Source of the DNA: a phage
Assembly (NCBI GenBank): GCA_020773975.1
Contig: GCA_020773975.1_3638.1
Direction: 5' to 3' (one strand)
Length of the DNA: 64,000 bases
In this document: in pieces, positions 19,523 through 34,528 of the stretch
Layout: every line of letters starts with the position of its first letter
Numbering within the stretch: the stretch's first letter is position 1
The notes under the pieces: model-generated
Told to the model about the DNA's origin: nothing
What the model saw: only the letters and a program-made list of their open reading frames with translations
The model's database searches: none
Position numbers and translations under genes: made by a program

Positions 19523-19894
19523 TTAATTTACTGCATCTGGTATATGATCACCATCTGGTTGATCACGAATTATTCTTAGAGGTAACAAAGCACCATTTTT
19601 TCCTGTGAACAGACATTTATCTGCATAGCTACCATTCTTGTACCAAGAGTATGATGTATTAACTTTATAAGTCATACCATCAAACTGGCAAGCAACAGTG
19701 TTAATTATTGGCCTAATAAGACAAAATGTAAGGATACCAATAACAACAAACCATGCGATAATAATCTTGCGAATATTTGGTTTTACCCAATCAATAAAAT
19801 CATCTAATTTATCCCGTCTGAACCTATATGCCAGATACACACATACAGAGAACAGTATAGTAGTCAGTAGAACGAACACCCAATACCAAATCAT
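19523..19894 (-). CDS. Membrane protein
   Basis: Two or three predicted transmembrane helices. Confidence 0.35.
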   Translation of the reverse strand: MIWYWVFVLLTTILFSVCVYLAYRFRRDKLDDFIDWVKPNIRKIIIAWFVVIGILTFCLIRPIINTVACQFDGMTYKVNTSYSWYKNGSYADKCLFTGKNGALLPLRIIRDQPDGDHIPDAVN

Positions 19895-19906
19895 AATTAT
19901 TAACCT

Positions 19907-21232
19907 TTAATATATAGGATCCCACGTCAAAGAATCTACCTCACGAACACATTTGCCAACAGGAAATTGCGGAACACCGTCATCGGTCCTTGCTTGGTAT
20001 GTAAAAGTTATATACTTGCCGATAAGTTTTTTCATATTCTCTTGTGAGCGTTCTTCGTGTGTGCCTCTCATCTTACAGTTAAATTGTGTACCATCCTTCT
20101 CAGCACACAACAGGACACCTTCTCCATTCTTATCCTCAAAGGAATCAAGAACTCTGGCCTCACCATCCTGAAACAATTTCCACTTTTGAAGATCAGACGA
20201 TCTTTGTCCAAACTCATACTTTCCGTGAAAGTTCCTTATTACAACACCCTCATAACCTGCTTCCATGAACTCACTGATAAGCATCTTAACACGATCCTCA
20301 CCAGATACAATTGTTCCGTGTACCACTTTAATTAGGTGATGAGGCCACGCATATTCAGATACTTTCTGTAAATTATTAAACCTACACTTGTTTGTGTCAG
20401 AAGACATCCATGGTGTGTCATCTTCCGAAGGGATATCGAAAATATGATATTCTAAGTCTAAACTTGAATAACCACAATACTTATTAATATTTTTCTCTGG
20501 TTTCTTTGTGATAGGATGTTCTAACCCTTCGGAGTCTTTCCAAAATTCATCACCATTGTTAATTGCTTTTTCAAATCGCTTTATGTCTGATTGATAGTCT
20601 TTTTCTATCTCACACTCTATCTCTTCTGGTGTTCTCCATTTCTTAGCCAAAGAGACTATTTTCTGGAGACTTAACCCATGAATATACAACTCACCATCAA
20701 ACATTTTCAACCCTGTCTTTTTGGCTAGCTTAGACATCTGATCAAGCAATTGGCCTTGTACAGGATATGTTTTATTGCCACGACTATTAAACACAGGTAC
20801 ACCATCATCACCAACAAGAACAAGTGCTCTGACACCATCGAGTTTTGGTTGAACATGCACAGGGTACACTAAAGAGCTTTTCCTTTTAATAGCATCATGT
20901 GCAAGCATTGGTGAGAAATCTTGTGTTTTTGTAAGATCATCCTTTGATACACGATACCCAAGGCGTACTTGTTTTTCCCACTTAGATTTTGCCTCCAAAA
21001 CAGCTTGTTCTGTATCAGTTGTCTCATTTTTCTTACCGATGTTTTTGGCAAAGCATTTTGTGCGTTTATACTGCATTTTACCGTTTTCTTTACCAAACTC
21101 AACAACAGTTTCTGATCCATCTACCCACACATTCCACACTTGATATGTACCATCCCTGTTTATGGCGTACAGTGTTGGGAGGTTATTTTCAAGCATTAAA
21201 TACCTCGCTTGTGACAACAGATTTTCCTTCAA
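19907..21232 (-). CDS. ATP-dependent DNA ligase
   Basis: Motif I KLDGVRAL (KxDG) and nucleotidyltransferase architecture; 441 aa. Confidence 0.65.
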   Translation of the reverse strand: MKENLLSQARYLMLENNLPTLYAINRDGTYQVWNVWVDGSETVVEFGKENGKMQYKRTKCFAKNIGKKNETTDTEQAVLEAKSKWEKQVRLGYRVSKDDLTKTQDFSPMLAHDAIKRKSSLVYPVHVQPKLDGVRALVLVGDDGVPVFNSRGNKTYPVQGQLLDQMSKLAKKTGLKMFDGELYIHGLSLQKIVSLAKKWRTPEEIECEIEKDYQSDIKRFEKAINNGDEFWKDSEGLEHPITKKPEKNINKYCGYSSLDLEYHIFDIPSEDDTPWMSSDTNKCRFNNLQKVSEYAWPHHLIKVVHGTIVSGEDRVKMLISEFMEAGYEGVVIRNFHGKYEFGQRSSDLQKWKLFQDGEARVLDSFEDKNGEGVLLCAEKDGTQFNCKMRGTHEERSQENMKKLIGKYITFTYQARTDDGVPQFPVGKCVREVDSLTWDPIY

Positions 21233-21974
21233 GGTGATTCTCTACCAACTCGATAAGTTTTTGGTTGCTGAATGCTTCAACTGCTCCACAGCGCATTTGG
21301 TACACACCATATTTATCATACTGCTCTTGTTCAAAGTAATTGATCGCTGGGTTTATTACAACCAGTTTAATACCTCGTTTTGCGATTGCATGCAGCAATT
21401 CCCAGTTAAAGTCGATAACCTGATTAGAGCAGCCAACCAGAAGTACAAGATCTTGAGTATTCAAGTCATCAAGCATGGTAAACATGTCCTGATAAAGTGG
21501 TGCATTCTCACCGAAAAATACCACATTTGGCTTGCACCACCAGTAATCATCAGGGTCAACAACCGCATATCCGACATCAATCACACGTTTAGGAAACTCT
21601 TCACCATTCTGTACAACAAGCTCTTTGAGAAAACCATGTACATGGAGAATATCCTTCTTTTCAATGCCAGCACGTTCAAGCAGATCGTCAACGTTTGTCG
21701 TAAGATTACGTACTTGTCCAGGATAACGGTTATACCATTCTGCTACACGAAGATGTGCCATGTTGGGATGAACAGTCTTCAATTCTTCACGGCGTTTGTT
21801 ATAAAATTCGTGTGTTTTGTGATAGAAATTGCCACGAAATGCATGGATATTGCACACCTCTTCAAGATCATATTCGTCCCAGAGGGCTTTACCTGACGAA
21901 GTATCTGTACGGAATGTACGAATACCGCTTTCTGTTGACATACCTGCACCACTAATCACAAGTAATCGACGCAT
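21189..21974 (-). CDS. Sir2-family (sirtuin-like) NAD-dependent protein
   Basis: Canonical Sir2 NAD-binding motif GAGMSTESGIRTFR near the N-terminus; 261 aa. Confidence 0.7.
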   Translation of the reverse strand: MRRLLVISGAGMSTESGIRTFRTDTSSGKALWDEYDLEEVCNIHAFRGNFYHKTHEFYNKRREELKTVHPNMAHLRVAEWYNRYPGQVRNLTTNVDDLLERAGIEKKDILHVHGFLKELVVQNGEEFPKRVIDVGYAVVDPDDYWWCKPNVVFFGENAPLYQDMFTMLDDLNTQDLVLLVGCSNQVIDFNWELLHAIAKRGIKLVVINPAINYFEQEQYDKYGVYQMRCGAVEAFSNQKLIELVENHLEGKSVVTSEVFNA

Positions 21975-22400: not shown

Positions 22401-22733
22401 TTAGTATTGGTGGCGGTAGAATTTTATACCTAGAGTATTTTCAAAATATTCTCTCGCCAACATGAATTTGTTCACAGCAGATGGATTAGAGCTATGTACG
22501 TGAATCTCCTTAAGATTCATAAACTTACCATCATGAAGCTCACGTTCAATATAGATGAAAGCATCGTAACCTTCCTCATCACCACCCAAGTCATTATCAA
22601 AATGGATGGAATCAATGTCACTATCACTCATAAATTTTAGTAATGAGTAGAAGCTAGAGAGATTCTTACACCATAAGGCATTAGGGTATCCATAATCTAC
22701 TGGATTTCGCAGATCATCCAACCACAGTTTCAA
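22401..22733 (-). CDS. Hypothetical protein
   Basis: ORF only. Confidence 0.3.
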   Translation of the reverse strand: MKLWLDDLRNPVDYGYPNALWCKNLSSFYSLLKFMSDSDIDSIHFDNDLGGDEEGYDAFIYIERELHDGKFMNLKEIHVHSSNPSAVNKFMLAREYFENTLGIKFYRHQY

Positions 22734-23662
22734 ATTGTACCTCCGAAAAAATCCTCAATGATTTCACGACGGAATTGTTCATGCAAACATTCCCAATGTT
22801 CTTTAGAATAGTTATCACGCAAATAGTTTAGAAGTTTATAATACTCTTCGTCAACTTTCTTCTTAGCTTCTTCTGGATTTCCCCAAATCATATCCCACTT
22901 GTTCTTACCACCACGCATCAAGAATTTCTTCGCCAAATAGTGTGGAGATTTTATTTTCAATAGAAGATCTTGTTGCCCTGTGGCAGCACGTACAACAAAT
23001 CCCTCATGTTTGCATTCCTTAGACATTTTAAGGATGTCTGAAAAGTGCATATTTATGTAAATCTCCGGTCGTTTAAAACCGAACTCTTTTGCGATAAGAT
23101 CAAGAGCTTTTTCACTAAGCATAGAAGTTAATTTGTCTTTGTGAAAGCGAACACCAATCAAATACACACCAGATTTTTCAGGTACAATGTGTGGATCTGA
23201 AGGAGCACAAATCTCAAAGATAAATGTTGTCTTTGGTTCTTCCACACATGATAACAACATTGGCAAATTAGTACATTCAGCCATAATCATGCCTTTTGCA
23301 AGTTTTGCAAAATCTGAATCTAAAGTTCCTGTTGTTGAAACAATTAGCTCACCATTGTATGAGCTTACTGCTGCCATAAAGCCATTAACTTTACGTGCTG
23401 CATTTACAGCCATATCTTTTGGCAGGTCAGTACCGTTCTCTAAATGATTGAAAATCTTTGTAAAAGGCCAAACAATAATGTTGTCATCACTGTCCACAAC
23501 CATACCACGGCAATCAAGTAAGCGACTGTCTTGATCCCACAAGTTTTCCCAGAAAACTTTGTTACTGTATTTCAAAACAGACAAACCTTTAAACTCACCA
23601 CTGGTATAAGTCTTCTTTTTAACAAGACCTTTTGCCACTAAATCTTCAACATTAAATTTCAT
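22730..23662 (-). CDS. Putative RNA ligase (nucleotidyltransferase superfamily)
   Basis: KVNG (KxNG-type motif I lysine); sits with the kinase and phosphatase genes. Confidence 0.4.
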   Translation of the reverse strand: MKFNVEDLVAKGLVKKKTYTSGEFKGLSVLKYSNKVFWENLWDQDSRLLDCRGMVVDSDDNIIVWPFTKIFNHLENGTDLPKDMAVNAARKVNGFMAAVSSYNGELIVSTTGTLDSDFAKLAKGMIMAECTNLPMLLSCVEEPKTTFIFEICAPSDPHIVPEKSGVYLIGVRFHKDKLTSMLSEKALDLIAKEFGFKRPEIYINMHFSDILKMSKECKHEGFVVRAATGQQDLLLKIKSPHYLAKKFLMRGGKNKWDMIWGNPEEAKKKVDEEYYKLLNYLRDNYSKEHWECLHEQFRREIIEDFFGGTI

Positions 23663-23859
23663 AAGTCTTCACCACCACTATTGTAGGTTTGTTTATTCAA
23701 TAACTCAATTATACATAGCGATCGTCTTGCGTCAACAGATTGGCTTGTTGAGTTTTTAGCAACAACCAGCTTGTCCACATCTTCTTTCTTGATGGATCCG
23801 TAAGCACCAGAATCCATCATGAAGAATATTTTATCGTCTGTTATCTTGTATATTTTCAT
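23659..23859 (-). CDS. Hypothetical small protein
   Basis: ORF only. Confidence 0.3.
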   Translation of the reverse strand: MKIYKITDDKIFFMMDSGAYGSIKKEDVDKLVVAKNSTSQSVDARRSLCIIELLNKQTYNSGGEDL

Positions 23860-23880
23860 TCATAAACTCTGAATAATTAT

Positions 23881-24459
23881 TCAATGACCATCAGCGGTGA
23901 AAACGTCTTTTTCCATGCACATTTGGTATGCTTCTGGTAGATCCAAAATTCTCCCATGTACATCCCAACCCACATCAAGGATCCGTCCTTTCGCACTGTA
24001 AGAGCCGTGGCAATGACCGTGCAAGAACACAGACCCAAAGTGGGATTTATTCCATGCGGCAAACGGATAATGACTCATACAAATTTTTTGTTCATAATCG
24101 TTAAATTCGTAATAATCGCACACATCATGACCACGTTTTTTGAATGTTTTAATCGCATCAAAATTGTCATGATTACCTTTGACAAGGACGATATGCCCAA
24201 CAAGTTCATCAAGAATTTCTTCAAGTCTTTTAATAACTTGCTTGCCATGACCGAAACAGAAATCACCAAGCACAAAAGTCACAGTGTCAGCATCTGCACC
24301 ATGGTTAAATTTCACTGTGAGGTCTTGGTTCATTTGTTCAACTGTTTTGTACAAATCACCACGAAAACGTTTTGAACTCTCAAAGTTAAGGATGTTTTTA
24401 TGCCAGTAATGTAAATCAGATGTTACACGGTATTTGGTTCCCATTTCTCTCTCCCACAC
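23881..24459 (-). CDS. Calcineurin-like metallophosphoesterase
   Basis: Motifs GD...G, GNHD and GHCHG. Confidence 0.6.
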   Translation of the reverse strand: MWEREMGTKYRVTSDLHYWHKNILNFESSKRFRGDLYKTVEQMNQDLTVKFNHGADADTVTFVLGDFCFGHGKQVIKRLEEILDELVGHIVLVKGNHDNFDAIKTFKKRGHDVCDYYEFNDYEQKICMSHYPFAAWNKSHFGSVFLHGHCHGSYSAKGRILDVGWDVHGRILDLPEAYQMCMEKDVFTADGH

Positions 24460-25188: not shown

Positions 25189-25222
25189 AAGTCTTGACAT
25201 TCTTCAAGACTTAGTGTATTTT
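25189..25222 (+). promoter_or_regulatory. Sigma70-like promoter (TTGACA-17-TATTTT) overlapped by a 9-6-9 palindrome
   Basis: TTGACA at 25194-25199; palindrome AAGTCTTGA-cattct-TCAAGACTT spans 25189-25211. Confidence 0.45.
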
Positions 25223-25253
25223 AAATAAATTTTATATAATATATTATTATATA

Positions 25254-25384
25254 TATAATACGTAGTATTATATTAAATTATATTATATAATTTATATTAT
25301 ATTAGATCATATTAAATTATATTATACGTAGTATAATATATTATATTAAATAGATCATAGTATTATAATACGTAGTATTATATT
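25254..25384. repeat. AT tract with three copies of an ~20 bp repeat containing palindromic TACGTA, and clustered GATC sites
   Basis: ataatacgtagtattatatt at ~25255 and ~25365 (exact) and a variant at ~25322. GATC at 25305, 25353, 25390 and 25413. Confidence 0.55.
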
Positions 25385-25427
25385 TAATAGATCTTATATG
25401 TTAGTTTAATTTGATCAGTTAGTATTG

Positions 25428-25471
25428 TGTCCCTGAAACGGGGACATACCCATGTCCCTGAAACGGGGACA
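25428..25471. repeat. Two tandem 19 bp hairpin repeats (tgtccc-tgaaacg-gggaca), 25 bp period
   Basis: Exact direct repeat at 25428-25446 and 25453-25471; each is an inverted repeat GTCCC/GGGAC. Confidence 0.6.
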
Positions 25472-25481
25472 TATGGGAGGG

Positions 25482-25510
25482 TTGACATTGTGTGGGGTTA
25501 TGGGTAGCAT
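25482..25510 (+). promoter_or_regulatory. Sigma70-like promoter (TTGACA-17-TAGCAT) for the rightward gene block
   Basis: Consensus -35, weaker -10, immediately downstream of the hairpin repeats. Confidence 0.4.
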
Positions 25511-25917
25511 TCTCGGTGTTGGATTACACACCGGAGTTTGCCTTGAAATCTATTGTTGGGGGTTTCCATGTAAATCCGAAACCTGGGTCGTACATCGCTG
25601 TCCCGACAGAGTGGGTTTTTGATGAACGCTTATCACCAAGCGATCTGCAAAGACTGATACGCTTGTTGTGGAGGTACGAGTATTTCAAGAATCTGAACCC
25701 TCTGGGTGGGGAACTGGTATTCTTTCCGTCACAACAATCCTTGTGTGGCCTGTTGGGGTGGAATGAAAACTCACGAACCAAAGTGTCTGAATTTCTGTCC
25801 CGGATGGAGAGCTTTGGTTATATCAGGCGTGTTAGATCAGGATTTCAGGATTCTGATGGTAACGTGAAACCAAGAAATTATATTATCGTCAATCGTATCA
25901 GAGGGGATAAATCATGA
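25492..25917 (+). CDS. Hypothetical protein (true start probably TTG ~25543 after GGAG)
   Basis: The ORF-track start lies inside the promoter spacer. Stop overlaps the start of the next gene. Confidence 0.35.
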   Translation: MGLWVAFSVLDYTPEFALKSIVGGFHVNPKPGSYIAVPTEWVFDERLSPSDLQRLIRLLWRYEYFKNLNPLGGELVFFPSQQSLCGLLGWNENSRTKVSEFLSRMESFGYIRRVRSGFQDSDGNVKPRNYIIVNRIRGDKS

Positions 25918-26723
25918 ATATTCGTTTGAGTTTGAACAAGCTACATGTGCCAGTTGACCATTTCACATTTAGTGGTGGTGAGGAGCAGATTAAGATCGAT
26001 ATGCGTCATGTTCCGCATGGTTCGATAGGTTTTGTTGATATCTTCGCTAGACTCAAGAACTCACAGGATGTGATGTGTTTGGCACTGCTTGTTGATGCAG
26101 TTAATCGTCTTGGCAATTTGGATGTTGGTGTGGAAAAGGTTTTACACCTGCCGTACATTCCGTATGCTCGACAAGACCGAGTTATGAACCCTGGAGAATC
26201 TCTGTCGGTGAAAGTCTTTGCCACAATGATTAACTCGCTTGGTTTCCACAAAGTCATCGTCGATGATCCACACAGTGACGTATCCGCAGCACTGATTGAT
26301 AACGTGAAAATTCGTTCTCAGACTGATTTGTTCTTGAACATGAATTTTGATTTTGATCTGCTTACGGACGAATCGCTTGTGTTGGTTGCTCCAGATGCAG
26401 GTGCACGCAAGAAGACCCAGAAGGTTGCTGATACCTTGGAACTATCTGTGGTTGAAGCAGGTAAAGTCCGTGATGTTTCGACAGGGGCAATCACAGGTAC
26501 AACAGTGTTTGGTGATGTCGATGGGAAGACATGCCTGGTTGTCGATGATATCTGCGATGGTGGGTTTACGTTTACAAACTTAGCTCAAGCCTTGAAAGCT
26601 GCTGGTGCAAAACGTGTTATTTTGTATGTTACGCATGGAATTTTCTCTCGTGGGAAAGAATTTATTCTCGACGGTGGTGTTGACGAAATTTATGCGTATT
26701 ACGACTGGACAGAAAATTTTTAA
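25914..26723 (+). CDS. Ribose-phosphate pyrophosphokinase (PRPP synthetase) family protein; candidate ADP-ribose pyrophosphate synthetase
   Basis: Prs motifs PYARQDR and PRPP-binding VDDICDGG; 269 aa. Confidence 0.65.
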   Translation: MNIRLSLNKLHVPVDHFTFSGGEEQIKIDMRHVPHGSIGFVDIFARLKNSQDVMCLALLVDAVNRLGNLDVGVEKVLHLPYIPYARQDRVMNPGESLSVKVFATMINSLGFHKVIVDDPHSDVSAALIDNVKIRSQTDLFLNMNFDFDLLTDESLVLVAPDAGARKKTQKVADTLELSVVEAGKVRDVSTGAITGTTVFGDVDGKTCLVVDDICDGGFTFTNLAQALKAAGAKRVILYVTHGIFSRGKEFILDGGVDEIYAYYDWTENF

Positions 26724-26788
26724 GTAGGTATTGACAAAGATACGTTTTAGTGAAAAAATACGCTTTTTAGGATTGGAGGGTTGAGACC

Positions 26789-28504
26789 ATGCTTCACAAA
26801 GAAAGTCCATTGCTGTTTGCAGATTTTTATAAACCAAGTCACATCTCGATGTACGACAAACGTTCACAGTTTGTTCAAGACAACATGACACCACGCAATG
26901 CGAAACACTTTGTACACTTTGCAGATGATGACCATCGTGTGATGTTTGCTGGTCTTCAGGGATTTATCAAGTGGTTCCTGATTGACATGTTTAATAATAA
27001 TTTCTTTGCTTTACCGAAAGAAAAGGCGATTCAGGATTACAAAGAGATTTGTGATTTGAGCATTGGGAAGGATGCTGTTGAAACTTGGGGTTTTGAGAGA
27101 TTGCATGATCTTGGCTATCTCCCAATTGAAATTAGAGCCTTGCCTGAAGGAACTCTTGTTCCTGTTCAGGTTCCTATGTTCACGATTCAGAATACGCACC
27201 CTGATTTTTACTGGCTGCCAAACTTCCTTGAGAGCGTGATCTCCTCGGAGACTTGGAAGACAATTACCACGGCAACGACTTTCTGGCAATACCGTAAACT
27301 ATCAGAACTGTGGGCAAAGAAAACATGTGATAACAACGATCACGTTCCTTTCCAGAACCATTGTTTTGCATACCGTGGTGAAGCTGGAACACATGACGCA
27401 GCACAGAGCGAATTTGGGCAACTGATTAGCTCAATGGGCACAGATACAATTCCAGCGATTGTTTACGCAAATCGCTATTACAACATGAAAGGTCGCTTTG
27501 TTGCTGGGTCTATTCCCGCATCTGAGCATAGCGTAGCGACAACGAACATTGGTTTTATTGTTGAGCGTATCCAGCAGGAAAATCCTGATATGTCGCTTGC
27601 TGAAGTACGTTTTCGTGCTGAAGTTGAGTTCTTAAAGCGTTATGCAACAGAGATTTTTCCGTCAGGCTATGCTTCATACGTCGCAGACAGCTATGATTTT
27701 TGGGCAATCATTACACAGGCAGCCAAAATCCTGAAAGATGAGATTATGTCTCGTGATGGCAAGCTGGTCTTTCGACCGGACAGTGGGATCCCAGAGCACA
27801 TTATTGCTGGCTATCGTGTGTGCTCCCAGGAAGAATGGGCAACTGGTCAGTGCTGTGATATGGATGCTGTGCTGTTTAAAAATGGCAAATATGTCACTCT
27901 GCACGAGATGTCCAGAGACACTTCCTGGATGCGAGATTCGGAAGGAAACCTCGTAGATTGGAAATCTTTGACAGGTGATGAGTTTACAAATTATCTGACC
28001 AAAGAGGAGGTTAAGGGTGCTGTACAATGCTTGTGGGAAATCTTTGGTGGTAGTGTAAACTCTTTGGGTTACAAAGTTCTTGATAGCCATGTTGGTTTAA
28101 TCTACGGAGACTCTATCACAATCTCTCGTGCTAAAGAGATCTTTGAGCGCCTTGAAGAACGAGGCTTTGCTTCCAGCAACATTGTGTTTGGTGTAGGATC
28201 TTATACAACGCAATATACAACTCGTGATTCTCTTGGGATGGCTGTAAAAGCTACTGGTGCTGTGATTGATGGCAGACAAGTAATGGTTGTAAAAGAGCCT
28301 AAGACTGATCTTGGGAAGAAATCTGCGAAAGGTTTTGTTAAAGTTATTCGTGGTGATGATGGTGAGTTGAAGCTGGTAGATAATCTTGGTATTAATCAGG
28401 TATCTGACCCTGATAACGAGCTTAGAACAGTTTTTGTTAATGGTAAGCTGCTTGTGGATGAGGATCTTGAAGAAATTCGCCAAAGAGCTTTGTCACAGCT
28501 TTAA
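26789..28504 (+). CDS. Nicotinamide phosphoribosyltransferase (NAMPT) family protein; candidate nicotinamide ADP-ribose transferase
   Basis: 571 aa with type II phosphoribosyltransferase features; directly downstream of the Prs-like gene. Confidence 0.6.
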   Translation: MLHKESPLLFADFYKPSHISMYDKRSQFVQDNMTPRNAKHFVHFADDDHRVMFAGLQGFIKWFLIDMFNNNFFALPKEKAIQDYKEICDLSIGKDAVETWGFERLHDLGYLPIEIRALPEGTLVPVQVPMFTIQNTHPDFYWLPNFLESVISSETWKTITTATTFWQYRKLSELWAKKTCDNNDHVPFQNHCFAYRGEAGTHDAAQSEFGQLISSMGTDTIPAIVYANRYYNMKGRFVAGSIPASEHSVATTNIGFIVERIQQENPDMSLAEVRFRAEVEFLKRYATEIFPSGYASYVADSYDFWAIITQAAKILKDEIMSRDGKLVFRPDSGIPEHIIAGYRVCSQEEWATGQCCDMDAVLFKNGKYVTLHEMSRDTSWMRDSEGNLVDWKSLTGDEFTNYLTKEEVKGAVQCLWEIFGGSVNSLGYKVLDSHVGLIYGDSITISRAKEIFERLEERGFASSNIVFGVGSYTTQYTTRDSLGMAVKATGAVIDGRQVMVVKEPKTDLGKKSAKGFVKVIRGDDGELKLVDNLGINQVSDPDNELRTVFVNGKLLVDEDLEEIRQRALSQL

Positions 28505-28517: not shown

Positions 28518-28541
28518 CCCCTCCGTGCGGAGGGGTTTTTC
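28518..28541 (+). terminator. Rho-independent terminator
   Basis: ccctccg-tg-cggaggg hairpin followed by ttttt. Confidence 0.55.
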
Positions 28542-29415: not shown

Positions 29416-29488
29416 GGCCCCTTAGCTCAGTGGTTAGAGCAGGTGACTCATAATCGCTTGGTCGCTGGTTCAAGTCCAGCAGGGGCCA
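29416..29488 (+). tRNA. tRNA-Met (anticodon CAT; could be initiator, elongator or lysidine-modified Ile2)
   Basis: Cloverleaf by eye: acceptor ggcccct/aggggcc, anticodon loop cuCAUaa, T-loop ttcaagt, 3' CCA encoded. Confidence 0.75.
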
Positions 29489-29543
29489 CCAAATGTGGCA
29501 CACGAAATAAACTAGGTTTATTGTTTTCGGAGGAGAAAACTTA

Positions 29544-29867
29544 ATGGCTAAGAAACAGTCTGCTAAAAAGGTATCAGCTATCGAGGCGATCAAGCAACCT
29601 TTTCAGTTTGAATCAAAATCCACGCAGACACATTCTGCACCGCACGATGTGCGTCTTGGTGGCAAAACGCAAACTGTAGCAGTTCTGAAAAAACGCAAAG
29701 ATGAAGACGGTAATACTGAAATGTATTATGAATCTGTGTCTCGTGTCATTGGTGGTGAAGTGATTTCTGCTTCCTATCGTATCCGTACTGGGAAAACAAA
29801 GCGTGAACGAGAAGTGAAACAGAAAACAAGCACTCCTGTAGAAAACGTTAAGAAAACTAAAAAATAA
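29544..29867 (+). CDS. Hypothetical basic protein
   Basis: ORF with RBS; lysine-rich. Confidence 0.35.
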   Translation: MAKKQSAKKVSAIEAIKQPFQFESKSTQTHSAPHDVRLGGKTQTVAVLKKRKDEDGNTEMYYESVSRVIGGEVISASYRIRTGKTKREREVKQKTSTPVENVKKTKK

Positions 29868-29943
29868 TTTACTGACGAGAGTGCCACCGTGAGCCAGCGT
29901 CATTAAACAAAGGGAATCACGGACATTCAGGAGGGTTGAGATT

Positions 29944-30138
29944 ATGATAGGATCTTTGCTTAAGATTGCAAGCGATGTAACAACAACGGCTGTTGAAGTG
30001 ACTGCTGCGGTAACAACTCCGTTTGTTGATTTAGCATCAGATGCTATAGCAGCAGCAGCAGACGAGATGATTTTGTCACCGACATCTGATCTTGTCCAAG
30101 ATCTTTGTGATTCTATAAAAGATGCTGTAAAAGATTAA
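29944..30138 (+). CDS. Hypothetical small protein
   Basis: ORF only. Confidence 0.3.
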   Translation: MIGSLLKIASDVTTTAVEVTAAVTTPFVDLASDAIAAAADEMILSPTSDLVQDLCDSIKDAVKD

Positions 30139-30211
30139 AATTTTTCTTGACATAGTTTTTGTTTTTCTGTATAGTTACTTTATCAAAGCTAATTTACATA
30201 TGAGAGATTGA

Positions 30212-30859
30212 ATGTCTACTAAGATTTCCGTAACTCGTGCACTTGCTTCTATCTCTAAGATTGAAGATAAGATCAATAAGCGTATTTATAACCTTGAATG
30301 TATTAAGATTGCAAAAGGAACTGAGAATAATTGTAAGATTCCTGGTTATATCGGCTCTGTTGATGATTTTAAGAAATCTGCGATCAACGACTATCAAAGT
30401 CTGCAAGACCTCTTGGCAGTTCGCGATGAACTGAAGGCAAAAATTGTCAAGTCTAATGCTGAGACAATTGTCAAAATTGGTAAGGTGTCTATGACAGTTG
30501 CTGAGGCAATCGAACGCAAACGGACGATTTGCTTTAAACAAGAGTTGTTAAACAAACTTTGTGCACAGCGTGCTTCTGCACAGCTTCTTCTGGCAAAAGA
30601 AGAAAAATCTCTGGAAGATAAACTTGAAAATGCCAGAGCGCCATATATCCAACGTGATAAAGCGCCAGATGCAGAGCAGATTAAGACTGTGGAAGCTCCC
30701 ATTCGAATGATGAACACACCATCGGTTGTGGATCCTCTTGAACTGGCTTCTAAGATTCGTTCTCTTGAAGAAGAGATTGAAGATTTCTTGTCTAACGTTG
30801 ATTTTGCGTTGTCTGAGTCAAACGCTAAGACAGAAATTGAGATTGAGCACTCTCTCTAA
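30212..30859 (+). CDS. Hypothetical protein (coiled-coil)
   Basis: ORF only. Confidence 0.35.
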   Translation: MSTKISVTRALASISKIEDKINKRIYNLECIKIAKGTENNCKIPGYIGSVDDFKKSAINDYQSLQDLLAVRDELKAKIVKSNAETIVKIGKVSMTVAEAIERKRTICFKQELLNKLCAQRASAQLLLAKEEKSLEDKLENARAPYIQRDKAPDAEQIKTVEAPIRMMNTPSVVDPLELASKIRSLEEEIEDFLSNVDFALSESNAKTEIEIEHSL

Positions 30860-31224
30860 AAGGCTCTGATAATATCATTATCGTTCCTTTGTTTTGAAAT
30901 TTAAAACATTGCTTTTGATTAACGAAGTTTACATCATCTTGCCTCCTGGGGATTGGAGGTTAAATATTCCCCACCATGTATCGTATATGTATGAGGATAA
31001 TACAGGACATAGATGCAGCGAGGCACACTAAGATGCCTTGTTGTTTCTACTAAGTAAAAGTTCATACAATAAAGGTCAATGGTCAAATGTAAAAGATGAA
31101 ACTTGAAAGTTAATTCTTGAAAGATAAAATTTCGTTTATCATCTGAAATCCTTGGCACAGGTTATGGCTCACAAGATATGGTCTGTAAAGCCTCAAGGCT
31201 GTTAATCGGAAGCAATGTCTTATT

Positions 31225-31296
31225 GCTCGTATAGCTCAACGGTAGAGCACCTGCCTTGTAAGCAGGGGGTTGCAGGTTCGAAACCTGCTGCGAGCA
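31225..31296 (+). tRNA. tRNA-Thr (anticodon TGT)
   Basis: Anticodon loop cuUGUaa, T-loop ttcgaaa, CCA encoded. Confidence 0.7.
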
Positions 31297-31301
31297 CCAA
31301 T

Positions 31302-31398
31302 GCTGGGTAAGCCCCTTGGCAAGGGCGAGGATTTATAATCCTGAAAATAGACGGGCTAGCCGTTGAATACATAGGTGGTTCGATTCCATCGCCCAGCT
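31302..31398 (+). tRNA. Atypical tRNA-like gene (~97 nt; canonical acceptor and T-arm, anticodon not confidently assignable)
   Basis: Acceptor gctgggt/gcccagc and T-arm ggtgg-ttcgatt-ccatc are canonical; the central region holds the palindrome aggatt-TAT-aatcct and a hairpin acgg-gctag-ccgt. Confidence 0.35.
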
Positions 31399-31598
31399 AC
31401 AAGTTTGTTTTATAGTGTATTAGCTTATATTATTCGATATAAATGCCTGATCAGCATTTGTTGGGAATGAGGCATACAATGCGTGAGAAAGCTATCGGTG
31501 CGCAACGTTGATTTCAAACGTATTCATGCTCGTAGAGCACCAACTGTGGAAGTTGGGGTGAGGTTGAGTAACCATACACTATAAAGCATTCTTATTCT

Positions 31599-31672
31599 CG
31601 GGGTGTAGCTCAGTTGGATAGAGCAGCGGCCTTCTAAGCCGTAGGTCACAGGTTCGAATCCTGTCTCCTCGA
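31599..31672 (+). tRNA. tRNA-Arg (anticodon TCT)
   Basis: D-arm tagctcagttggatagagca, anticodon loop cuUCUaa, T-loop ttcgaat, CCA encoded. Confidence 0.7.
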
Positions 31673-31751
31673 CCAGATTAACCCCAACTTGAGAATCGTC
31701 AGCGCGGCTCGTAAGACCCACTCTATAGGTTCTCTACTCGGGGTACTTATT

Positions 31752-31825
31752 GCACGGTTGCCGGAATTTGGTTACGGGTCTGTCTGCAAAACGGATATAT
31801 GTCGGTTCAAGTCCGACACCGTGCT
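31752..31825 (+). tRNA. tRNA-Cys (anticodon GCA)
   Basis: Acceptor gcacggt/accgtgc, anticodon loop cuGCAaa, T-loop ttcaagt, CCA encoded. Confidence 0.6.
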
Positions 31826-31865
31826 CCAAACTTTCAATTTCTTGGTAAATATGTTAAAATACCAC

Positions 31866-31894
31866 TTGACAGATATGTTTTTATTTGATAATAT
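31866..31894 (+). promoter_or_regulatory. Sigma70-like promoter (TTGACA-17-TAATAT)
   Basis: Near-consensus hexamers with 17 bp spacer ~20 nt upstream of the RBS/ATG at 31914. Confidence 0.55.
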
Positions 31895-31913
31895 CATTAA
31901 GTGGGGTTTTAAA

Positions 31914-32261
31914 ATGGCTACCAAGCAGCTTACAAAACGTAGAAGAGGAAAAGGTCGTCCTCTGAAAGAGGAATCTAATGCAATTCAGTTAGAGAAAAAT
32001 ATCCTAGATTTGAAAACGAATCTGATTGCAATGATTCCTGAAGCTCATCAGGTTCTTAGGGATTTGATGAAGAATGTGAATACAAAAGACAATATCAGAG
32101 AAAATATCGCTCGTTATGTTATTGAGAAAGGTGAGCAGATGCTTTCTGATTACTTTGATGAGGAAAACGAAGAGTTACTCGAAAAAGATAACTCAGAAAA
32201 AGCTCCTATTAAGGCAGCTAAACCATTCTCGACGGATATTGTTCAATTCAAACAAGGTTAA
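31914..32261 (+). CDS. Hypothetical basic protein (115 aa) inside the tRNA array
   Basis: ATG with upstream promoter; the longer ORF-track start at 31689 overlaps tRNA-Cys and is rejected. Confidence 0.4.
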   Translation: MATKQLTKRRRGKGRPLKEESNAIQLEKNILDLKTNLIAMIPEAHQVLRDLMKNVNTKDNIRENIARYVIEKGEQMLSDYFDEENEELLEKDNSEKAPIKAAKPFSTDIVQFKQG

Positions 32262-32262
32262 T

Positions 32263-32349
32263 GTGTCGTTAGACCGTAGGGGTAGCTGGGGAGACTGTAA
32301 ATCTCCTGTCTCGAAAGGGACTCGGGTAGTTCGACTCTATCACGGCACA
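32263..32349 (+). tRNA. tRNA-Tyr (anticodon GTA), class II with long variable arm
   Basis: Anticodon arm ggaga-cuGUAaa-tctcc, variable arm, T-loop ttcgact, CCA encoded. Confidence 0.65.
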
Positions 32350-32420
32350 CCAACTGAATCTGTACTGGCTTTGATGTGTGACGATACCCTCCAATCGTGG
32401 TTGTTGGGCCAGTACAGTTT

Positions 32421-32493
32421 GGGAGTGTAGATCAGTTAGTAGATCGCTCGACCGATAATCGAGAGGACGTAGGGGCAGAGCCTACCACTCCCA
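32421..32493 (+). tRNA. tRNA-like, apparent anticodon GAT (Ile), with non-canonical T-loop (possible pseudo-tRNA)
   Basis: Acceptor gggagtg/cactccc, anticodon arm ctcga-ccGAUaa-tcgag (C33), T-arm gtagg-GGCAGAG-cctac lacks the TTCRA consensus. Confidence 0.4.
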
Positions 32494-32501
32494 CCAAATA
32501 T

Positions 32502-32573
32502 GCATCCATAGTTTAATTGGGAAAACTACAGCCTTCCAAGCTGAAGTCGAGGGTTCGATACCCTCTGGATGCT
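32502..32573 (+). tRNA. tRNA-Gly (anticodon TCC)
   Basis: Acceptor gcatcca/tggatgc, anticodon loop cuUCCaa, T-loop ttcgata, CCA encoded. Confidence 0.65.
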
Positions 32574-32687
32574 CCAGTTAAAAGATGTCAATGAAATCCG
32601 CTTGGGTCAACTGAAGACCGTAACAAATTCCATGGTGTTGTGTTTGCGGTCCAACACCAGACATCTTCTATCTATGTACAGGCTTGA

Positions 32688-33251
32688 GTGCGTATGAGAT
32701 ACTTGAAATATTTATCGTGGATTCTGTTAGCACCTCTTGACCCAATTATGTCGGTTCTATGTGTTATTCTGGCTCCTTTTGTTGTTCCGTTCTATAATGA
32801 GAAGACAGGGCATCTACCTTATATTTTCAGGTGGATGGAAACATATGATAATCCTATAGATGGTGACAGAGGACACATAGAGAGATGGGAAGAAGTCCGT
32901 AAAATAGGAAGTTTTGGTGTTTACCTACAACGAGTTGCTTGGTTGTGGAGAAATAAAGCCTACAATTTTTCCTATCACGTACTTGGACGTGAAATCACAT
33001 CTGTGACAAAGTGGAAAGGAAACATCCATGTAAGCTCTGATGTGGAGGATAATCAACAAGGCTATTTGTTGATGTGGAATGACAATGCGTGGGGTGTATT
33101 CGCGTTTGTCCCGTCTTTTAGATTGTTTGGAAAACAATTTTACTGGCGAATTTATGTCGGTTGGAAACTGAAGAGTGTGGTTCCTGAAGACAGAGCTTTT
33201 TCAAGAGAGAGAGTGATGTTGGCATTTTTCATAAGTCCTTTCCGAAAATAG
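32688..33251 (+). CDS. Hypothetical membrane protein inside the tRNA array
   Basis: N-terminal hydrophobic helices (LSWILLAPLDPIMSVLCVILAPFVVPF); 187 aa. Confidence 0.4.
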   Translation: MRMRYLKYLSWILLAPLDPIMSVLCVILAPFVVPFYNEKTGHLPYIFRWMETYDNPIDGDRGHIERWEEVRKIGSFGVYLQRVAWLWRNKAYNFSYHVLGREITSVTKWKGNIHVSSDVEDNQQGYLLMWNDNAWGVFAFVPSFRLFGKQFYWRIYVGWKLKSVVPEDRAFSRERVMLAFFISPFRK

Positions 33252-33256
33252 TTTTT

Positions 33257-33336
33257 AATGAGAGTAGCGTAACTTCACTGGGTGAAGGCTGGCCTCCAAA
33301 ACCAGTGACTAAGAGGTTCGATTCCTCACTCTCGTG
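33257..33336 (+). tRNA. Non-canonical tRNA-like gene with apparent 8-bp acceptor / 4-bp T-stem, 6-bp D-stem; possible anticodon CCA
   Basis: Hand fold: acceptor atgagagt/actctcgt, D hairpin cttcac-tgg-gtgaag, anticodon arm gctgg(c)-cuCCAaa-(a)ccagt, T-arm gagg-ttcgatt-cctc. No CCA encoded. Confidence 0.35.
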
Positions 33337-33340
33337 CAAA

Positions 33341-33413
33341 AGGGGATTAGCATAGTGGCCTAATGCAACGGGCTTTGACCCCGTGATCGGTTGTTCGAAT
33401 CAACCATCCCCTG
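33341..33413 (+). tRNA. tRNA-Gln (anticodon TTG)
   Basis: Acceptor aggggat/atcccct, anticodon arm acggg-cuUUGac-cccgt, T-loop ttcgaat, CCA encoded. Confidence 0.7.
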
Positions 33414-33425
33414 CCAAGTTAAAAC

Positions 33426-33512
33426 GGAGAAGCAAATCGATTGGCGACGAAAACACATTGGAAATGTGCTGACTGGTAAAACGGATTGAGAGTTCGATTC
33501 TCTCCTTCTCCG
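33426..33512 (+). tRNA. tRNA-Ser (anticodon GGA), class II
   Basis: Acceptor ggagaag/cttctcc, anticodon loop uuGGAaa, long variable region, T-arm gagag-ttcgatt-ctctc, G73, CCA encoded. Confidence 0.6.
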
Positions 33513-33549
33513 CCAGTTTTTAATTACTAAGGTATTGGAAGATTAACCC

Positions 33550-33627
33550 TAATTTGGTAAGGGGTCTCCCTGCTGAGGAGATAGTAACCCAGAAATGGGT
33601 GTGACAGTTCGATTCTGTCAGCCTCCT
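33550..33627 (+). tRNA. tRNA-like element with canonical T-arm, acceptor 3' strand and CCA but non-canonical 5' half (GNRA hairpin where the anticodon arm should be)
   Basis: T-arm gacag-ttcgatt-ctgtc, then agcctcc-t-cca; upstream hairpin accca-GAAA-tgggt. The 5' boundary is uncertain. Confidence 0.3.
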
Positions 33628-33857
33628 CCAAGTTATCTTTAATGTAGCTTGTTATTCTTACTTTAGCAGAGTAAATCTTCGGCAAGTGGCGGTAACCACT
33701 TTACCGATACCCCAGAGCAGTCCGCTCTTTACTGGCGTAAGTCAAACACTCATGATGGTCATGTAATCGTAATCTATCATTAGTGTGCCCTCCCTAGAGG
33801 GCTGTTGCGTATAGCTAATTATGTGCGAGTAATTAGCTATTTTAAAGATAATTTAAA

Positions 33858-33931
33858 GGATCTGTAGCCAAATGGTTTAAGGCACTCGACTTTTAATCGA
33901 GGGATTGTTAGTTCGAATCTAACCAGATCCA
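33858..33931 (+). tRNA. tRNA-Lys (anticodon TTT)
   Basis: Acceptor ggatctg/cagatcc, anticodon arm ctcga-cuUUUaa-tcgag, T-loop ttcgaat, CCA encoded. Confidence 0.75.
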
Positions 33932-33953
33932 CCAAAATATTCTGGTTCTTTGA

Positions 33954-34041
33954 CCGAGTGGTCGATGGTGACGGCCTGTTAAGCCGTTGGGAGGAATCTC
34001 CCCACCGAAGGTTCGAATCCTTCAGGAACCGCCAATTCTTG
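33954..34041 (+). tRNA. Class II (Ser-like, long variable arm, G73) tRNA carrying apparent anticodon GTT (Asn codons)
   Basis: Acceptor ggttctt/aggaacc, D-arm acc-gagtggtcgat-ggt, anticodon arm acggc-cuGUUaa-gccgt, variable hairpin gggag-gaat-ctccc, T-arm gaagg-ttcgaat-ccttc, G73, CCA encoded. Confidence 0.5.
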
Positions 34042-34120
34042 ACTTAATCAAGTCACAGATATCACCTAGCCAGCGATACCAGTTAGTAGATTCTGGGACA
34101 ATTAAAATCTACATCTCTCT

Positions 34121-34195: not shown

Positions 34196-34240
34196 CCAAC
34201 AAACATATACATATCAAAGCAGAAATGTACAGAGGATACC

Positions 34241-34432: not shown

Positions 34433-34446
34433 CTGTTGATATAAAT

Positions 34447-34520: not shown

Positions 34521-34528
34521 CCAATCAT

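What the first reader, a model, noticed from the sequence alone, without database searches (positions are those of the whole stretch)
25914..28504. PRPP-synthetase-like plus NAMPT-like gene pair: candidate phage NAD+ reconstitution (NARP1-type) counter-defence module
Adjacent genes encode a Prs-family enzyme and a NAMPT-family enzyme in one operon ending in a strong terminator. To my recollection, recent work described phage pairs of exactly these two families as an ADP-ribose pyrophosphate synthetase and a nicotinamide ADP-ribose transferase that rebuild NAD+ from ADPR and nicotinamide, countering NAD-depleting defences. Sequence alone cannot separate that from an ordinary PRPP/NMN salvage pair.
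Basis: partly seen in the sequence, partly recalled or inferred. Interest (0 to 1): 0.6.

Follow-up and report, generated by a model that had tools for sequence, protein, structure and literature searches.

The report
Known phage NAD+ rebuilding gene pair
These two adjacent phage genes are a textbook copy of NARP1, an already published two-enzyme pathway that rebuilds NAD+ from the fragments left by bacterial NAD-destroying defences, and the same genes in the nearly identical phage Av-05 are already listed in the discovery paper.

Summary
Two same-strand genes, 25914-26723 (269 aa, Prs-like) and 26789-28504 (571 aa, NAMPT-like), are 65 nt apart and are followed by a strong intrinsic terminator at 28518-28540.

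The window is about 95% identical to Escherichia phage Av-05 (Vequintavirinae, Avunavirus). Osterman et al. already list the Av-05 orthologues as an Adps with a neighbouring Namat and as an "Adps-associated" Namat.

My own tests agree:
- The NAMPT-like protein carries the published Namat signature (GSYTTQYTTRD, against GGGLLQ..RD in true Nampt). It scores 568 bits on a Namat HMM and 245 on a Nampt HMM.
- The Prs-like protein lacks the C-terminal alpha11-alpha12 module, has the Adps DDICDG loop and the catalytic Lys. It scores 279 bits on an Adps HMM and 111 on a cellular-Prs HMM, and sits inside the phage Adps clade (200/200 bootstraps).
- Both genes are under purifying selection.

No Nmnat, NadR/PnuC, Macro (Adpp) or RyR (RyDEP) partner was found in the window. 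This is therefore the minimal two-gene NARP1, predicted to be ineffective against aRES-type defence.

Enzyme activity and phenotype are inferred from homology, not shown. Novelty: already known. Interest is low.

The parts
25914..26723 (+). adps: ADP-ribose pyrophosphate synthetase (Prs-like), 269 aa
   Evidence: Family hits. Identity: 39% to Bas63 Adps, 41% to ICP1 Adps, 27% to E. coli Prs. K184 aligns with ICP1 K185 and SpbetaL1 K162; PP loop DDICDGGFTF at aa 211-220; no C-terminal alpha11-alpha12 module. Scores 279 bits on the Adps HMM and 111 on the Prs HMM; 200/200 bootstraps for the Adps/Prs split. dN/dS 0.16 against Av-05.
26789..28504 (+). namat: nicotinamide ADP-ribose transferase (NAMPT-like), 571 aa
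   Evidence: 419 bits to the SpbetaL1 Namat structures 9W5X/9W5W, against 165-180 bits to canonical NAMPTs. SCH motif GSYTTQYTTRD at aa 470-480; catalytic F193, R196, D219, R329 and D331 conserved. Scores 568 bits on the Namat HMM and 245 on the Nampt HMM; dN/dS 0.05. Lineage-typical extra segments at aa 250-289 and 336-408.
28518..28540 (+). intrinsic terminator closing the unit
   Evidence: 7-bp stem with 6 G-C pairs, 4-nt loop and a T5 tract. Folds at -14.3 kcal/mol, z = -2.2.
26775..26779 (+). ribosome-binding site (GGAGG) of namat, 9 nt before the ATG
   Evidence: Read directly from the sequence.
25901..25906 (+). ribosome-binding site (GAGGGG) of adps, 7 nt before the ATG
   Evidence: Read directly from the sequence.
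25492..25917 (+). upstream co-oriented 141-aa ORF (phrog_8453, weak winged-helix signal). It is probably the first gene of the same transcript and is not a NARP1 component.
   Evidence: Its stop codon overlaps the adps ATG. phrog_8453 E=1e-52; weak HTH_Crp_2 hit. It is the first rightward gene at the strand switch in 74 Vequintavirinae-type phages, and is present in phage LTH01, which has no Adps/Namat at that locus.
25482..25510 (+). sigma-70-like promoter match (TTGACA-17-TAGCAT), a candidate promoter for the unit. Weak evidence.
   Evidence: Consensus scan only; the number of sites found is no more than shuffled sequence gives.

Best explanation
The pair is a minimal two-gene NARP1 (NAD+ reconstitution pathway 1) of an Av-05-like Avunavirus that infects E. 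coli.

Proposed mechanism, by homology with the characterised enzymes of SpbetaL1, ICP1 and Bas63:
1. When a host NADase defence (SIR2-HerA/Nezha, type I Thoeris, DSR1/2, SEFIR) splits NAD+ into ADP-ribose and nicotinamide, the Prs-like enzyme (Adps) uses ATP to put a pyrophosphate on the free ribose of ADPR, giving ADPR-PP.
2. The NAMPT-like enzyme (Namat) then swaps that pyrophosphate for nicotinamide, which regenerates NAD+ directly without an NMN intermediate.

What is shown here: gene order, family and sub-family membership, the diagnostic motifs, conserved catalytic residues, purifying selection, and the absence of the accessory partners of the other pathways. What is inferred: the two enzyme activities and the counter-defence phenotype in this phage.

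Because no Macro-domain Adpp is present, the pathway is predicted not to work against aRES, which produces ADPR-1''-phosphate.
For: 1. Published catalogue. Av-05 KM190144_00031 (Adps) is marked 'Namat within 10 genes: Yes', and KM190144_00030 (Namat) is marked 'Adps-associated', as are the genes of phages 18-1-2 and TH18. The window is 95% identical in DNA to Av-05 across this locus.

2. Namat.
- 419 bits to the SpbetaL1 Namat crystal structures, against at most 181 bits to any canonical NAMPT.
- 42-46% identity to Bas63, ICP1 and SpbetaL1 Namat, against 27-33% to the KVP40, KP27 and GAP32 Nampts.
- SCH signature GS-Y-T-T-Q-Y-T-TRD, with the adenine-stacking aromatics at positions 3 and 7.
- A long SCL loop with Lys at the third position, as in Bas63 and ICP1.
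- R329 aligns with SpbetaL1 R306, whose mutation abolishes activity.
- 568 bits on the Namat HMM against 245 on the Nampt HMM.

3. Adps.
- Fails every NCBIfam Prs equivalog cutoff, for example 120 bits against 297.
- K184 aligns with K162 (SpbetaL1) and K185 (ICP1); DDICDG PP loop; F19, R86, H120, D161, D211 and D212 conserved; the alpha11-alpha12 module is absent.
- 279 bits on the Adps HMM against 111 on the Prs HMM; 200/200 bootstraps.

4. dN/dS is 0.16 for Adps and 0.05 for Namat.

5. No Nmnat, NadR, PnuC, Macro, NUDIX or RyR domain in the 68 other ORFs of the window.

Against: - No assay exists for this phage or for any Avunavirus. The closest experimentally tested enzymes are only 39-46% identical.
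- SCL stacking residue: after Lys39 comes His40 (then Phe41), where Bas63 has Trp and ICP1 has Tyr, so that clamp contact is not certain.
- Position 5 of the SCH motif is Thr rather than the usual aromatic residue.
- ICP1 F92, an adenine contact, is Met91 here, although the validated Bas63 enzyme also has Met at this position.
- Namat enzymes keep appreciable PRPP-to-NMN activity in vitro, so some NMN salvage is not excluded.
- Only 64 kb of a genome of about 121 kb was visible, so an Nmnat elsewhere cannot be excluded from the window alone. The published table argues against one.
Confidence: 0.9

Rival explanations
1. This is an ordinary auxiliary salvage pair. The Prs-like enzyme makes PRPP and the NAMPT-like enzyme makes NMN, which host NadR or NadD converts to NAD+. 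That would boost nucleotide and NAD supply, much like NARP2 without its own Nmnat.
For: Database names say so. TIGR01251 and NF006629 are passed at their cutoffs. Namat enzymes retain PRPP-to-NMN activity in vitro at about half the level of human Nampt.
Against: - The protein fails all Prs equivalog cutoffs.
- The purified SpbetaL1 homologue gave no product in the assay for canonical Prs activity but made ADPR-PP from ADPR and ATP.
- The window proteins fall in the Adps and Namat classes by HMM, tree and motifs.
- Bas63 counter-defence does not need host pncC or nadR.
- Phage Nampts of the NMN route carry GGGLLQ..RD and are 94% associated with an Nmnat gene. No Nmnat was found here.
Confidence: 0.05
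2. The biochemistry is the same (ADPR plus nicotinamide gives NAD+), but in this phage the main benefit is housekeeping rather than counter-defence. The pair would recycle the by-products of the phage's own NAD-consuming enzymes, such as the CobB-like sirtuin at 21189-21974, or buffer NAD+ generally during infection.
For: A phage sirtuin-family gene lies 4 kb away. NARP1 is carried by whole lineages of large lytic phages whatever the host's defences.
Against: - In Bas63, ADPR-PP appeared only when SIR2-HerA was present, and the deletion phenotype showed only on defended hosts.
- Sirtuins give O-acyl-ADPR, not ADPR, and no deacylase (Macro domain) was found.
- There is no evidence that the sirtuin and NARP1 are co-regulated; they lie on opposite strands.
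Confidence: 0.04
3. The genes are decaying or non-functional remnants kept only through synteny.
For: None specific. The two extra segments in Namat could be read as disruptive insertions.
Against: Both reading frames are intact, all catalytic residues are conserved, and dN/dS is 0.05-0.16. The same insertions occur in Bas63 Namat, which is functional in vivo.
Confidence: 0.01

Closest known systems
NARP1 of Escherichia phage Av-05 (KM190144_00031 / _00030; Av05_0017 / Av05_0016), with phages 18-1-2, 24-2-1 and TH18
   Same: Orthologous locus with the same gene order, the same upstream 141-aa gene and the same downstream genes. Identity is 95% in DNA, 93% (Adps) and 98% (Namat) in protein. It is already listed as Adps plus an Adps-associated Namat in Osterman et al., Tables S1 and S2.
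   Different: Only point substitutions, mostly synonymous. GenBank still calls these genes ribose-phosphate pyrophosphokinase and nicotinamide phosphoribosyl transferase.
NARP1 of Escherichia phage Bas63 (JohannRWettstein), genes 79-80. Validated in vivo against SIR2-HerA.
   Same: E. coli phage with the order adps then namat and a short spacer. DDICDGG PP loop, Met at the ICP1-F92 position, SCH GSYT.QY.TRD, Lys at the third SCL position, and both Namat extra segments.
   Different: Different subfamily (Ounavirinae). Only 39% (Adps) and 42% (Namat) identical. The SCL stacking residue is Trp in Bas63 and His in the window. The Bas63 Adps has a longer C-terminal tail.
NARP1 of Bacillus phage SpbetaL1 (biochemistry; Namat crystal structures 9W5X and 9W5W)
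   Same: Best PDB match for the window Namat (419 bits). Catalytic core and SCH motif are conserved, and K162 aligns with K184.
   Different: 32% (Adps) and 46% (Namat) identity. SpbetaL1 Namat has a short SCL with Arg40 as the stacking residue and lacks the insertions of about 20 and 57 aa. Its Adps PP loop is DDLSSFGG.
Vibrio phage ICP1 Adps (apo, ADPR/ATP-bound and ADPR-PP/AMP-bound structures; PMC13586617)
   Same: 41% identity. Conserved residues: F18, R87, H121, D161, K185, D212, D213, I214, C215, D216 and F221. The alpha11-alpha12 module is lost in both.
   Different: A218, A219 and S220 are G217, F218 and T219 in the window; F92 is M91; F223 is N222.
NARP2 (KVP40 NadV Nampt plus NatV Nmnat), and the variants NARP1-AP (with Macro-domain Adpp), NARP1 with RyDEP, and NARP3 (PnuC plus NadR)
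   Same: All are phage NAD+-restoring counter-defences. The NARP2 Nampt belongs to the same superfamily as Namat.
   Different: KVP40-type Nampt has GGGLLQQLDRD and a short SCL, and is only 32% identical. No Nmnat, Macro, RyR, PnuC or NadR domain was found in the window.

Membership tests
NARP1 (Adps + Namat) | A Prs-like gene and a NAMPT-like gene adjacent on the same strand in a phage genome (a Namat within 10 genes of the Adps) | tested here: met
   65-nt spacer, same strand, one terminator after the pair. The phage identity comes from the 95% match to Av-05.
NARP1 (Adps + Namat) | The Prs-like protein falls in the phage Adps clade, separate from cellular Prs | tested here: met
   279 bits on the Adps HMM against 111 on the Prs HMM. 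NJ tree split supported 200/200, with the window sequence nested among Gram-negative-phage Adps between ICP1 and Bas63. The tree had only 4 cellular Prs as the contrast group. The protein fails all NCBIfam Prs equivalog cutoffs.
NARP1 (Adps + Namat) | Adps lacks the C-terminal alpha11-alpha12 module of PRPS (PMC13586617) | tested here: met
   The 269-aa protein ends about 45 residues before the E. coli Prs C-terminus in the alignment.
NARP1 (Adps + Namat) | Adps has a remodelled PP loop (ICP1 C215-S220, DDICDGAAS) and the catalytic Lys (ICP1 K185, SpbetaL1 K162) | tested here: met
   The window has DDICDGGFT with C214 and D215 identical, and K184 aligned. Residues 217-219 differ (GFT against AAS), in the same way as in the validated Bas63 enzyme (GRT).
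NARP1 (Adps + Namat) | Adps residues that contact the ADPR adenine (ICP1 F18, R87, F92) | tested here: inconclusive
   F19 and R86 are conserved. F92 is M91, and Bas63 also has Met there.
NARP1 (Adps + Namat) | [quoted passage not shown] | tested here: met
   GSYTTQYTTRD at aa 470-480, with Y472 and Y476. Nampt controls read GGGLLQQLDRD and GGGLLQEVTRD. Position 5 is Thr rather than an aromatic residue.
NARP1 (Adps + Namat) | Namat SCL loop supplies an adenine-stacking residue (third residue Arg, or Lys/Tyr followed by a stacking fourth residue) | tested here: inconclusive
   The loop is long (TPR-NAKHFVHFADDDH) and the third residue is Lys39, as in Bas63 and ICP1. The fourth residue is His40 (then Phe41), not Trp or Tyr. 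No structure was modelled.
NARP1 (Adps + Namat) | Conserved Nampt-like catalytic core in Namat (SpbetaL1 F189, R192, D215, R306, D308) | tested here: met
   F193, R196, D219, R329 and D331.
NARP1 (Adps + Namat) | Enzyme activities: ADPR + ATP gives ADPR-PP; ADPR-PP + nicotinamide gives NAD+, with ADPR-PP preferred over PRPP | not testable with these tools
   Shown only for the SpbetaL1, ICP1, DyoEdafos and P. foliorum homologues.
NARP1 (Adps + Namat) | Protects the phage from NAD+-depleting defence systems | not testable with these tools
   Shown for Bas63, Fado and engineered SBSphiJ.
Canonical ribose-phosphate pyrophosphokinase (Prs) | Reaches an NCBIfam equivalog cutoff, and retains the C-terminal regulatory module and the DDM/IDTGGT loop | tested here: not met
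   The best equivalog score is 104 bits against a cutoff of 296. Only the broad subfamily model TIGR01251 is passed. The loop reads DDICDGGFT and the C-terminus is absent.
NARP2 (Nampt + Nmnat) | PRPP-type Nampt (GGGLLQ motif, short SCL-equivalent loop) with an Nmnat gene in the same phage | tested here: not met
   The motif and the HMM place the protein with Namat. No CTP_transf_like or NadR domain was found in 68 other ORFs, but only 64 kb of the genome was seen. The published table labels Av-05 'Adps-associated'.
NARP1-AP / NARP1 + RyDEP (extended NARP1) | A Macro-domain ADPR-1''P phosphatase (Adpp) or a RyR-domain glycosidase inside or next to the operon | tested here: not met
   The flanking genes give no Macro or RyR hit. 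The only extra gene in the unit is a 141-aa protein with a weak winged-helix signal.
NARP3 (PnuC + NadR-like) | A PnuC transporter and a NadR-like bifunctional enzyme | tested here: not met
   These are different protein families, and neither is present in the window.

The most novel reading that the evidence does not exclude
In this Vequintavirinae lineage NARP1 may do more than the published two-step counter-defence. There are two possibilities:
(a) The lineage-specific segment of about 57 extra residues in Namat (within aa 336-408), together with the segment of about 20 extra residues (within aa 250-289), could add a regulatory or partner-binding function that the crystallised SpbetaL1 enzyme lacks.
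(b) The pathway could be coupled to the phage's own CobB-like sirtuin (21189-21974) and recycle self-generated nicotinamide and ADPR derivatives.
Neither possibility is excluded by my data, and neither has positive support.
Probability: 0.06. Interest if true: 0.4.

Novelty: already known. Interest (0 to 1): 0.12.

Why it matters
For this window, the practical value is annotation. The genes should be named adps and namat (NARP1), not 'ribose-phosphate pyrophosphokinase' and 'nicotinamide phosphoribosyltransferase' as in GenBank.

It also gives a testable prediction about host range. An Av-05-like phage, a candidate biocontrol agent against E. coli O157:H7, should resist SIR2-HerA, Thoeris, DSR and SEFIR-type NAD+ depletion. 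Because it has no Adpp phosphatase, it should remain sensitive to aRES.

Nothing here changes what is understood about the pathway.

Tried and rejected
- **The 141-aa upstream ORF as a third NARP1 component.** Rejected. It is the conserved first rightward gene at the strand switch in 74 related phages, and phage LTH01 has it without any Adps or Namat behind it.
- **The calcineurin-like phosphoesterase (23881-24459, minus strand) as the 'phage phosphatase' that extends NARP1.** Rejected. The published Adpp is a Macro-domain protein encoded inside the operon. This gene is on the opposite strand, next to a T4 Rnl1-type RNA ligase, which fits RNA repair better.
- **The extra gene found between the 141-aa homologue and Adps in PVP-SE1, ABPH49 and ChuuTotoro as Adpp.** It is not a Macro domain. 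It is a HAD phosphatase or a winged-helix protein, and the window has no gene in that position.
- **NARP2 and NARP3 components elsewhere in the window.** None found.
- **A solved Adps structure by sequence search.** None found in the PDB copy. The ICP1 entries carry new-style identifiers, and the best hits were canonical Prs at 81 bits or less.
- **PDB entry 9KE8/9KEO as the ICP1 Namat.** It is not. Its origin was left unresolved.
- **PADLOC.** Only trivial PRTase-domain hits to ShosT and PsyrT.
- **Av-05's second 'phosphoribosylpyrophosphate synthetase' (Av05_0027, 70 aa, about window 19687-19899).** The corresponding window ORF gave no Prs-family hit, so this is probably a misannotation.
- **Structure prediction and the large homologue searches.** Not run, because the verdict did not depend on them.
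- **** were argument or file-path errors and produced no data.
Full report
**Observation.** The first matches the three Pfam domains of ribose-phosphate pyrophosphokinase, phrog_619 (E=4e-93) and TIGR01251. The second matches PF04095, phrog_448 (E=1e-194) and NF006629. The genes are 65 nt apart with no terminator-like site between them. Each has a good ribosome-binding site: GAGGGG at 25901-25906 and GGAGG at 26775-26779. The pair is followed 14 nt after the stop codon by a G+C-rich hairpin with a T5 tract (28518-28540, -14.3 kcal/mol). One refinement: a 141-aa ORF (25492..25917) overlaps the Adps start codon (ATGA), so it is probably the first cistron of the same transcript.

**Source of the sequence.** The locus is 95% identical in DNA to Escherichia phage Av-05 (Vequintavirinae, Avunavirus; host E. 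coli O157:H7), and 94-95% identical to phages 18-1-2, 24-2-1 and vB_EcoM_TH18. GenBank annotates the two genes as ribose-phosphate pyrophosphokinase and nicotinamide phosphoribosyl transferase.

**What the literature defines.**
- Osterman et al. (bioRxiv 10.1101/2024.02.11.579819) found this kind of operon in E. coli phage Bas63. Deleting it sensitised the phage to SIR2-HerA, and the rescue did not need host pncC or nadR.
- With the SpbetaL1 homologues they showed that the Prs-like enzyme (Adps) pyrophosphorylates ADPR to ADPR-PP. It gave no product in the assay for canonical Prs activity. The NAMPT-like enzyme (Namat) joins ADPR-PP to nicotinamide to give NAD+, and prefers ADPR-PP over PRPP.
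- NARP1 was found in 859 phages. 97% of Adps-clade genes have a Namat next to them.
- A separate clade of phage Nampts (KVP40 NadV) prefers PRPP and is 94% associated with an Nmnat gene. This is NARP2.
- Two structural papers add sequence rules. [quoted passage not shown] Adps has lost the C-terminal alpha11-alpha12 module, has a remodelled PP loop, and uses a mobile catalytic lysine (PMC13586617).
- Later variants are NARP1-AP (adds a Macro-domain ADPR-1''P phosphatase, Adpp, to beat aRES), RyDEP (a RyR-domain glycosidase) and NARP3 (PnuC plus NadR).

**Already catalogued.** Supplementary Tables 1 and 2 of the discovery paper list Av-05 KM190144_00031 (Prs/Adps homologue, 'Namat within 10 genes: Yes') and KM190144_00030 (Namat, 'Adps-associated'). 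They also list the genes of 18-1-2 and TH18. The window proteins are 93% and 98% identical to those entries. The finding is therefore a rediscovery of a published instance.

**Independent test, Namat.**
- Against the PDB, the 571-aa protein scores 419 bits to the SpbetaL1 Namat structures 9W5X and 9W5W, but only 165-181 bits to any canonical NAMPT.
- In an alignment with three characterised Namats and three Nampts from phages without an Adps partner (KVP40, whose PRPP preference was measured, plus KP27 and GAP32), it is 42-46% identical to the Namats and 27-33% identical to the Nampts.
- Its SCH motif is GSYTTQYTTRD (aa 470-480). The references read GSYTYQYMTRD (Bas63), GSYTYQYVTRD (ICP1) and GSFTYQYNTRD (SpbetaL1), against GGGLLQQLDRD (KVP40) and GGGLLQEVTRD (KP27).
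- The catalytic core is intact: F193, R196, D219, R329 (SpbetaL1 R306) and D331.
- An HMM built from the three characterised Namats scores it at 568 bits, and an HMM built from the three Nampts at 245 bits. Leave-one-out controls behaved as expected, except for the divergent GAP32.
- The SCL loop is long and has Lys at the third position, as in Bas63 and ICP1. The next residue is His40 (then Phe41) rather than Trp or Tyr, so I leave that single contact as inconclusive.

**Independent test, Adps.**
- The 269-aa protein passes only the broad TIGR01251 subfamily model. It fails every Prs equivalog model by a wide margin.
- It is 39-41% identical to Bas63 and ICP1 Adps and 27% identical to E. coli Prs.
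- It has K184 at the position of ICP1 K185 and SpbetaL1 K162, the DDICDG PP loop (E. coli Prs has DDMIDTGGT), and the conserved acceptor residues F19, R86, H120, D161, D211 and D212. It ends before the alpha11-alpha12 module.
- ICP1 F92 is Met here, as it is in Bas63.
- An Adps HMM built without the window's close relatives scores it at 279 bits, and a cellular-Prs HMM at 111. E. coli Prs gives the reverse, 134 and 550.
- A neighbour-joining tree separates the four cellular Prs from all phage Adps in 200 of 200 bootstraps, with the window sequence nested among the Adps of Gram-negative-host phages. The contrast group is small (four cellular Prs), but the published tree used thousands of sequences.

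**Functional state.** Against Av-05, dN/dS is 0.16 for adps and 0.05 for namat, so both genes are under purifying selection.

**Extra segments in Namat.** The window Namat is about 80 aa longer than the crystallised enzyme, because two inter-anchor segments are longer. Residues 250-289 span 40 aa, against 19-20 in SpbetaL1 and ICP1. Residues 336-408 span 73 aa, against 16-17 in SpbetaL1 and ICP1 and 6 in the Nampts. The same two expansions occur in PVP-SE1, ABPH49, ChuuTotoro and in the in-vivo-validated Bas63. They are a lineage trait, not an anomaly.

**Surroundings.**
- A Pfam sweep of the 68 other ORFs of at least 90 aa on the coding strands found no Nmnat, NadR, PnuC, Macro, NUDIX or RyR domain. 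The flanking genes gave no such hits either. This is therefore the minimal two-gene NARP1.
- The 141-aa upstream gene (phrog_8453, weak winged-helix signal) is conserved as the first rightward gene at the divergent strand switch in 74 related phages. Phage LTH01 has it without NARP1, so it is not part of the pathway.
- The phosphoesterase on the other strand sits next to a T4-type RNA ligase and is not the Macro-type Adpp.

[quoted passage not shown] This restores the pool that SIR2-HerA, Thoeris, DSR or SEFIR systems deplete. Sub-family membership is shown here. The activities and the phenotype are inferred. I put 0.9 on this explanation. The rivals are an ordinary PRPP/NMN salvage pair (0.05), housekeeping recycling linked to the phage's own sirtuin (0.04) and decaying genes (0.01). 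Since there is no Adpp, the phage is predicted to stay sensitive to aRES.

**Verdict.** The feature is already known, and its orthologues are listed in the discovery paper. Interest is low. The useful outputs are a corrected annotation and a host-range prediction.

Noticed in passing
window 25209-25473: Just upstream of the unit, at the divergent strand switch and the cumulative GC-skew minimum, lies an extremely AT-rich tract of about 200 nt. It contains degenerate 44-nt repeats and many palindromes built around 'ATACGTAGTAT'. Two perfect 21-nt direct repeats, TGTCCCTGAAACGGGGACATA (25428-25448 and 25453-25473), follow it, and each can form a GTCCC/GGGAC hairpin. This could be a replication origin or an operator and early-promoter region.
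   Followed up: partly
window 25492-25917 (+): A 141-aa protein (phrog_8453) with weak winged-helix, replication-initiator and DnaD-like signals. It is translationally coupled to adps, and is the conserved first gene after the AT-rich region in 74 Vequintavirinae-type phages, including one without NARP1. Its true start may be the TTG at 25543. Function unknown; it may bind the repeats upstream.
   Followed up: partly
window 21189-21974 (-): A phage-encoded SIR2-family protein (PF02146, E=6e-26). Its best PDB match is the E. coli CobB deacylase 1S5P. The GAGxS and HG motifs are present, the zinc-binding cysteines do not align to CobB's, and there is no PADLOC defence hit. This is an NAD+-consuming enzyme class encoded 4 kb from the NAD+-rebuilding pair.
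   Followed up: partly
L010:4405-4914 (Acinetobacter phage ABPH49) and L011:4351-4860 (Serratia phage ChuuTotoro): In these relatives a 169-aa HAD-family phosphatase (PF18143 HAD_SAK_2) lies immediately upstream of Adps and overlaps it. That is the operon position where published NARP1-AP operons carry the Macro-domain ADPR-1''P phosphatase Adpp. It could be a non-homologous analogue of Adpp. I did not find it described in the papers I read. PVP-SE1 has a winged-helix protein in the same position, with a faint hit to PF24409 'wHTH-PRTase associated'.
   Followed up: partly
Osterman Table S2 entries KY514263_00250/_00252 (CB7), JQ015307_00199/_00201 (phiTE) and MF979560_00261/_00263 (DU_PP_I); hit H9 (FBKp34): In several relatives the Namat gene is split into two ORFs with a gene in between. 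The break falls inside the first extra segment, equivalent to about aa 260-275 in the window protein. FBKp34 has an HNH homing endonuclease annotated under the Namat match. This suggests that an intron or homing-endonuclease insertion hotspot coincides with that segment. The window gene is uninterrupted, and Rfam finds no intron in it.
   Followed up: no
window 743-981 (-) and 39086-39411 (+): Two group I introns (Rfam RF00028, 74.7 and 67.9 bits). The left arm also has the anaerobic ribonucleotide reductase NrdD spread over four ORFs, two LAGLIDADG domains, and an intein-splicing domain hit among ORFs that also hit ribonucleotide reductase. The genome appears heavily invaded by self-splicing elements.
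   Followed up: no
window 29416-34689 (+): A tRNA cluster directly downstream of NARP1: 15 genes by ARAGORN, including two tRNA-Met and two tRNA-Ser. Rfam adds one more tRNA at 32421-32493 that ARAGORN did not call.
   Followed up: no
window 22730-24459 (-): A T4 Rnl1-type RNA ligase (22730-23662) and a calcineurin-like phosphoesterase (23881-24459). Elsewhere in the left arm are a cREC_REC 'cyclic-phosphate processing' domain and an AAA_33 kinase-like domain. Together these look like an RNA (tRNA) repair toolkit, which would be another counter-defence function.
   Followed up: no
window ~19687-19899 (-), equivalent to Av05_0027: RefSeq annotates a 70-aa Av-05 CDS here as 'phosphoribosylpyrophosphate synthetase'. 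The corresponding window ORF (19523-19894, 123 aa, a hydrophobic N-terminus) has no Prs-family hit. This is probably a misannotation in the public record.
   Followed up: partly
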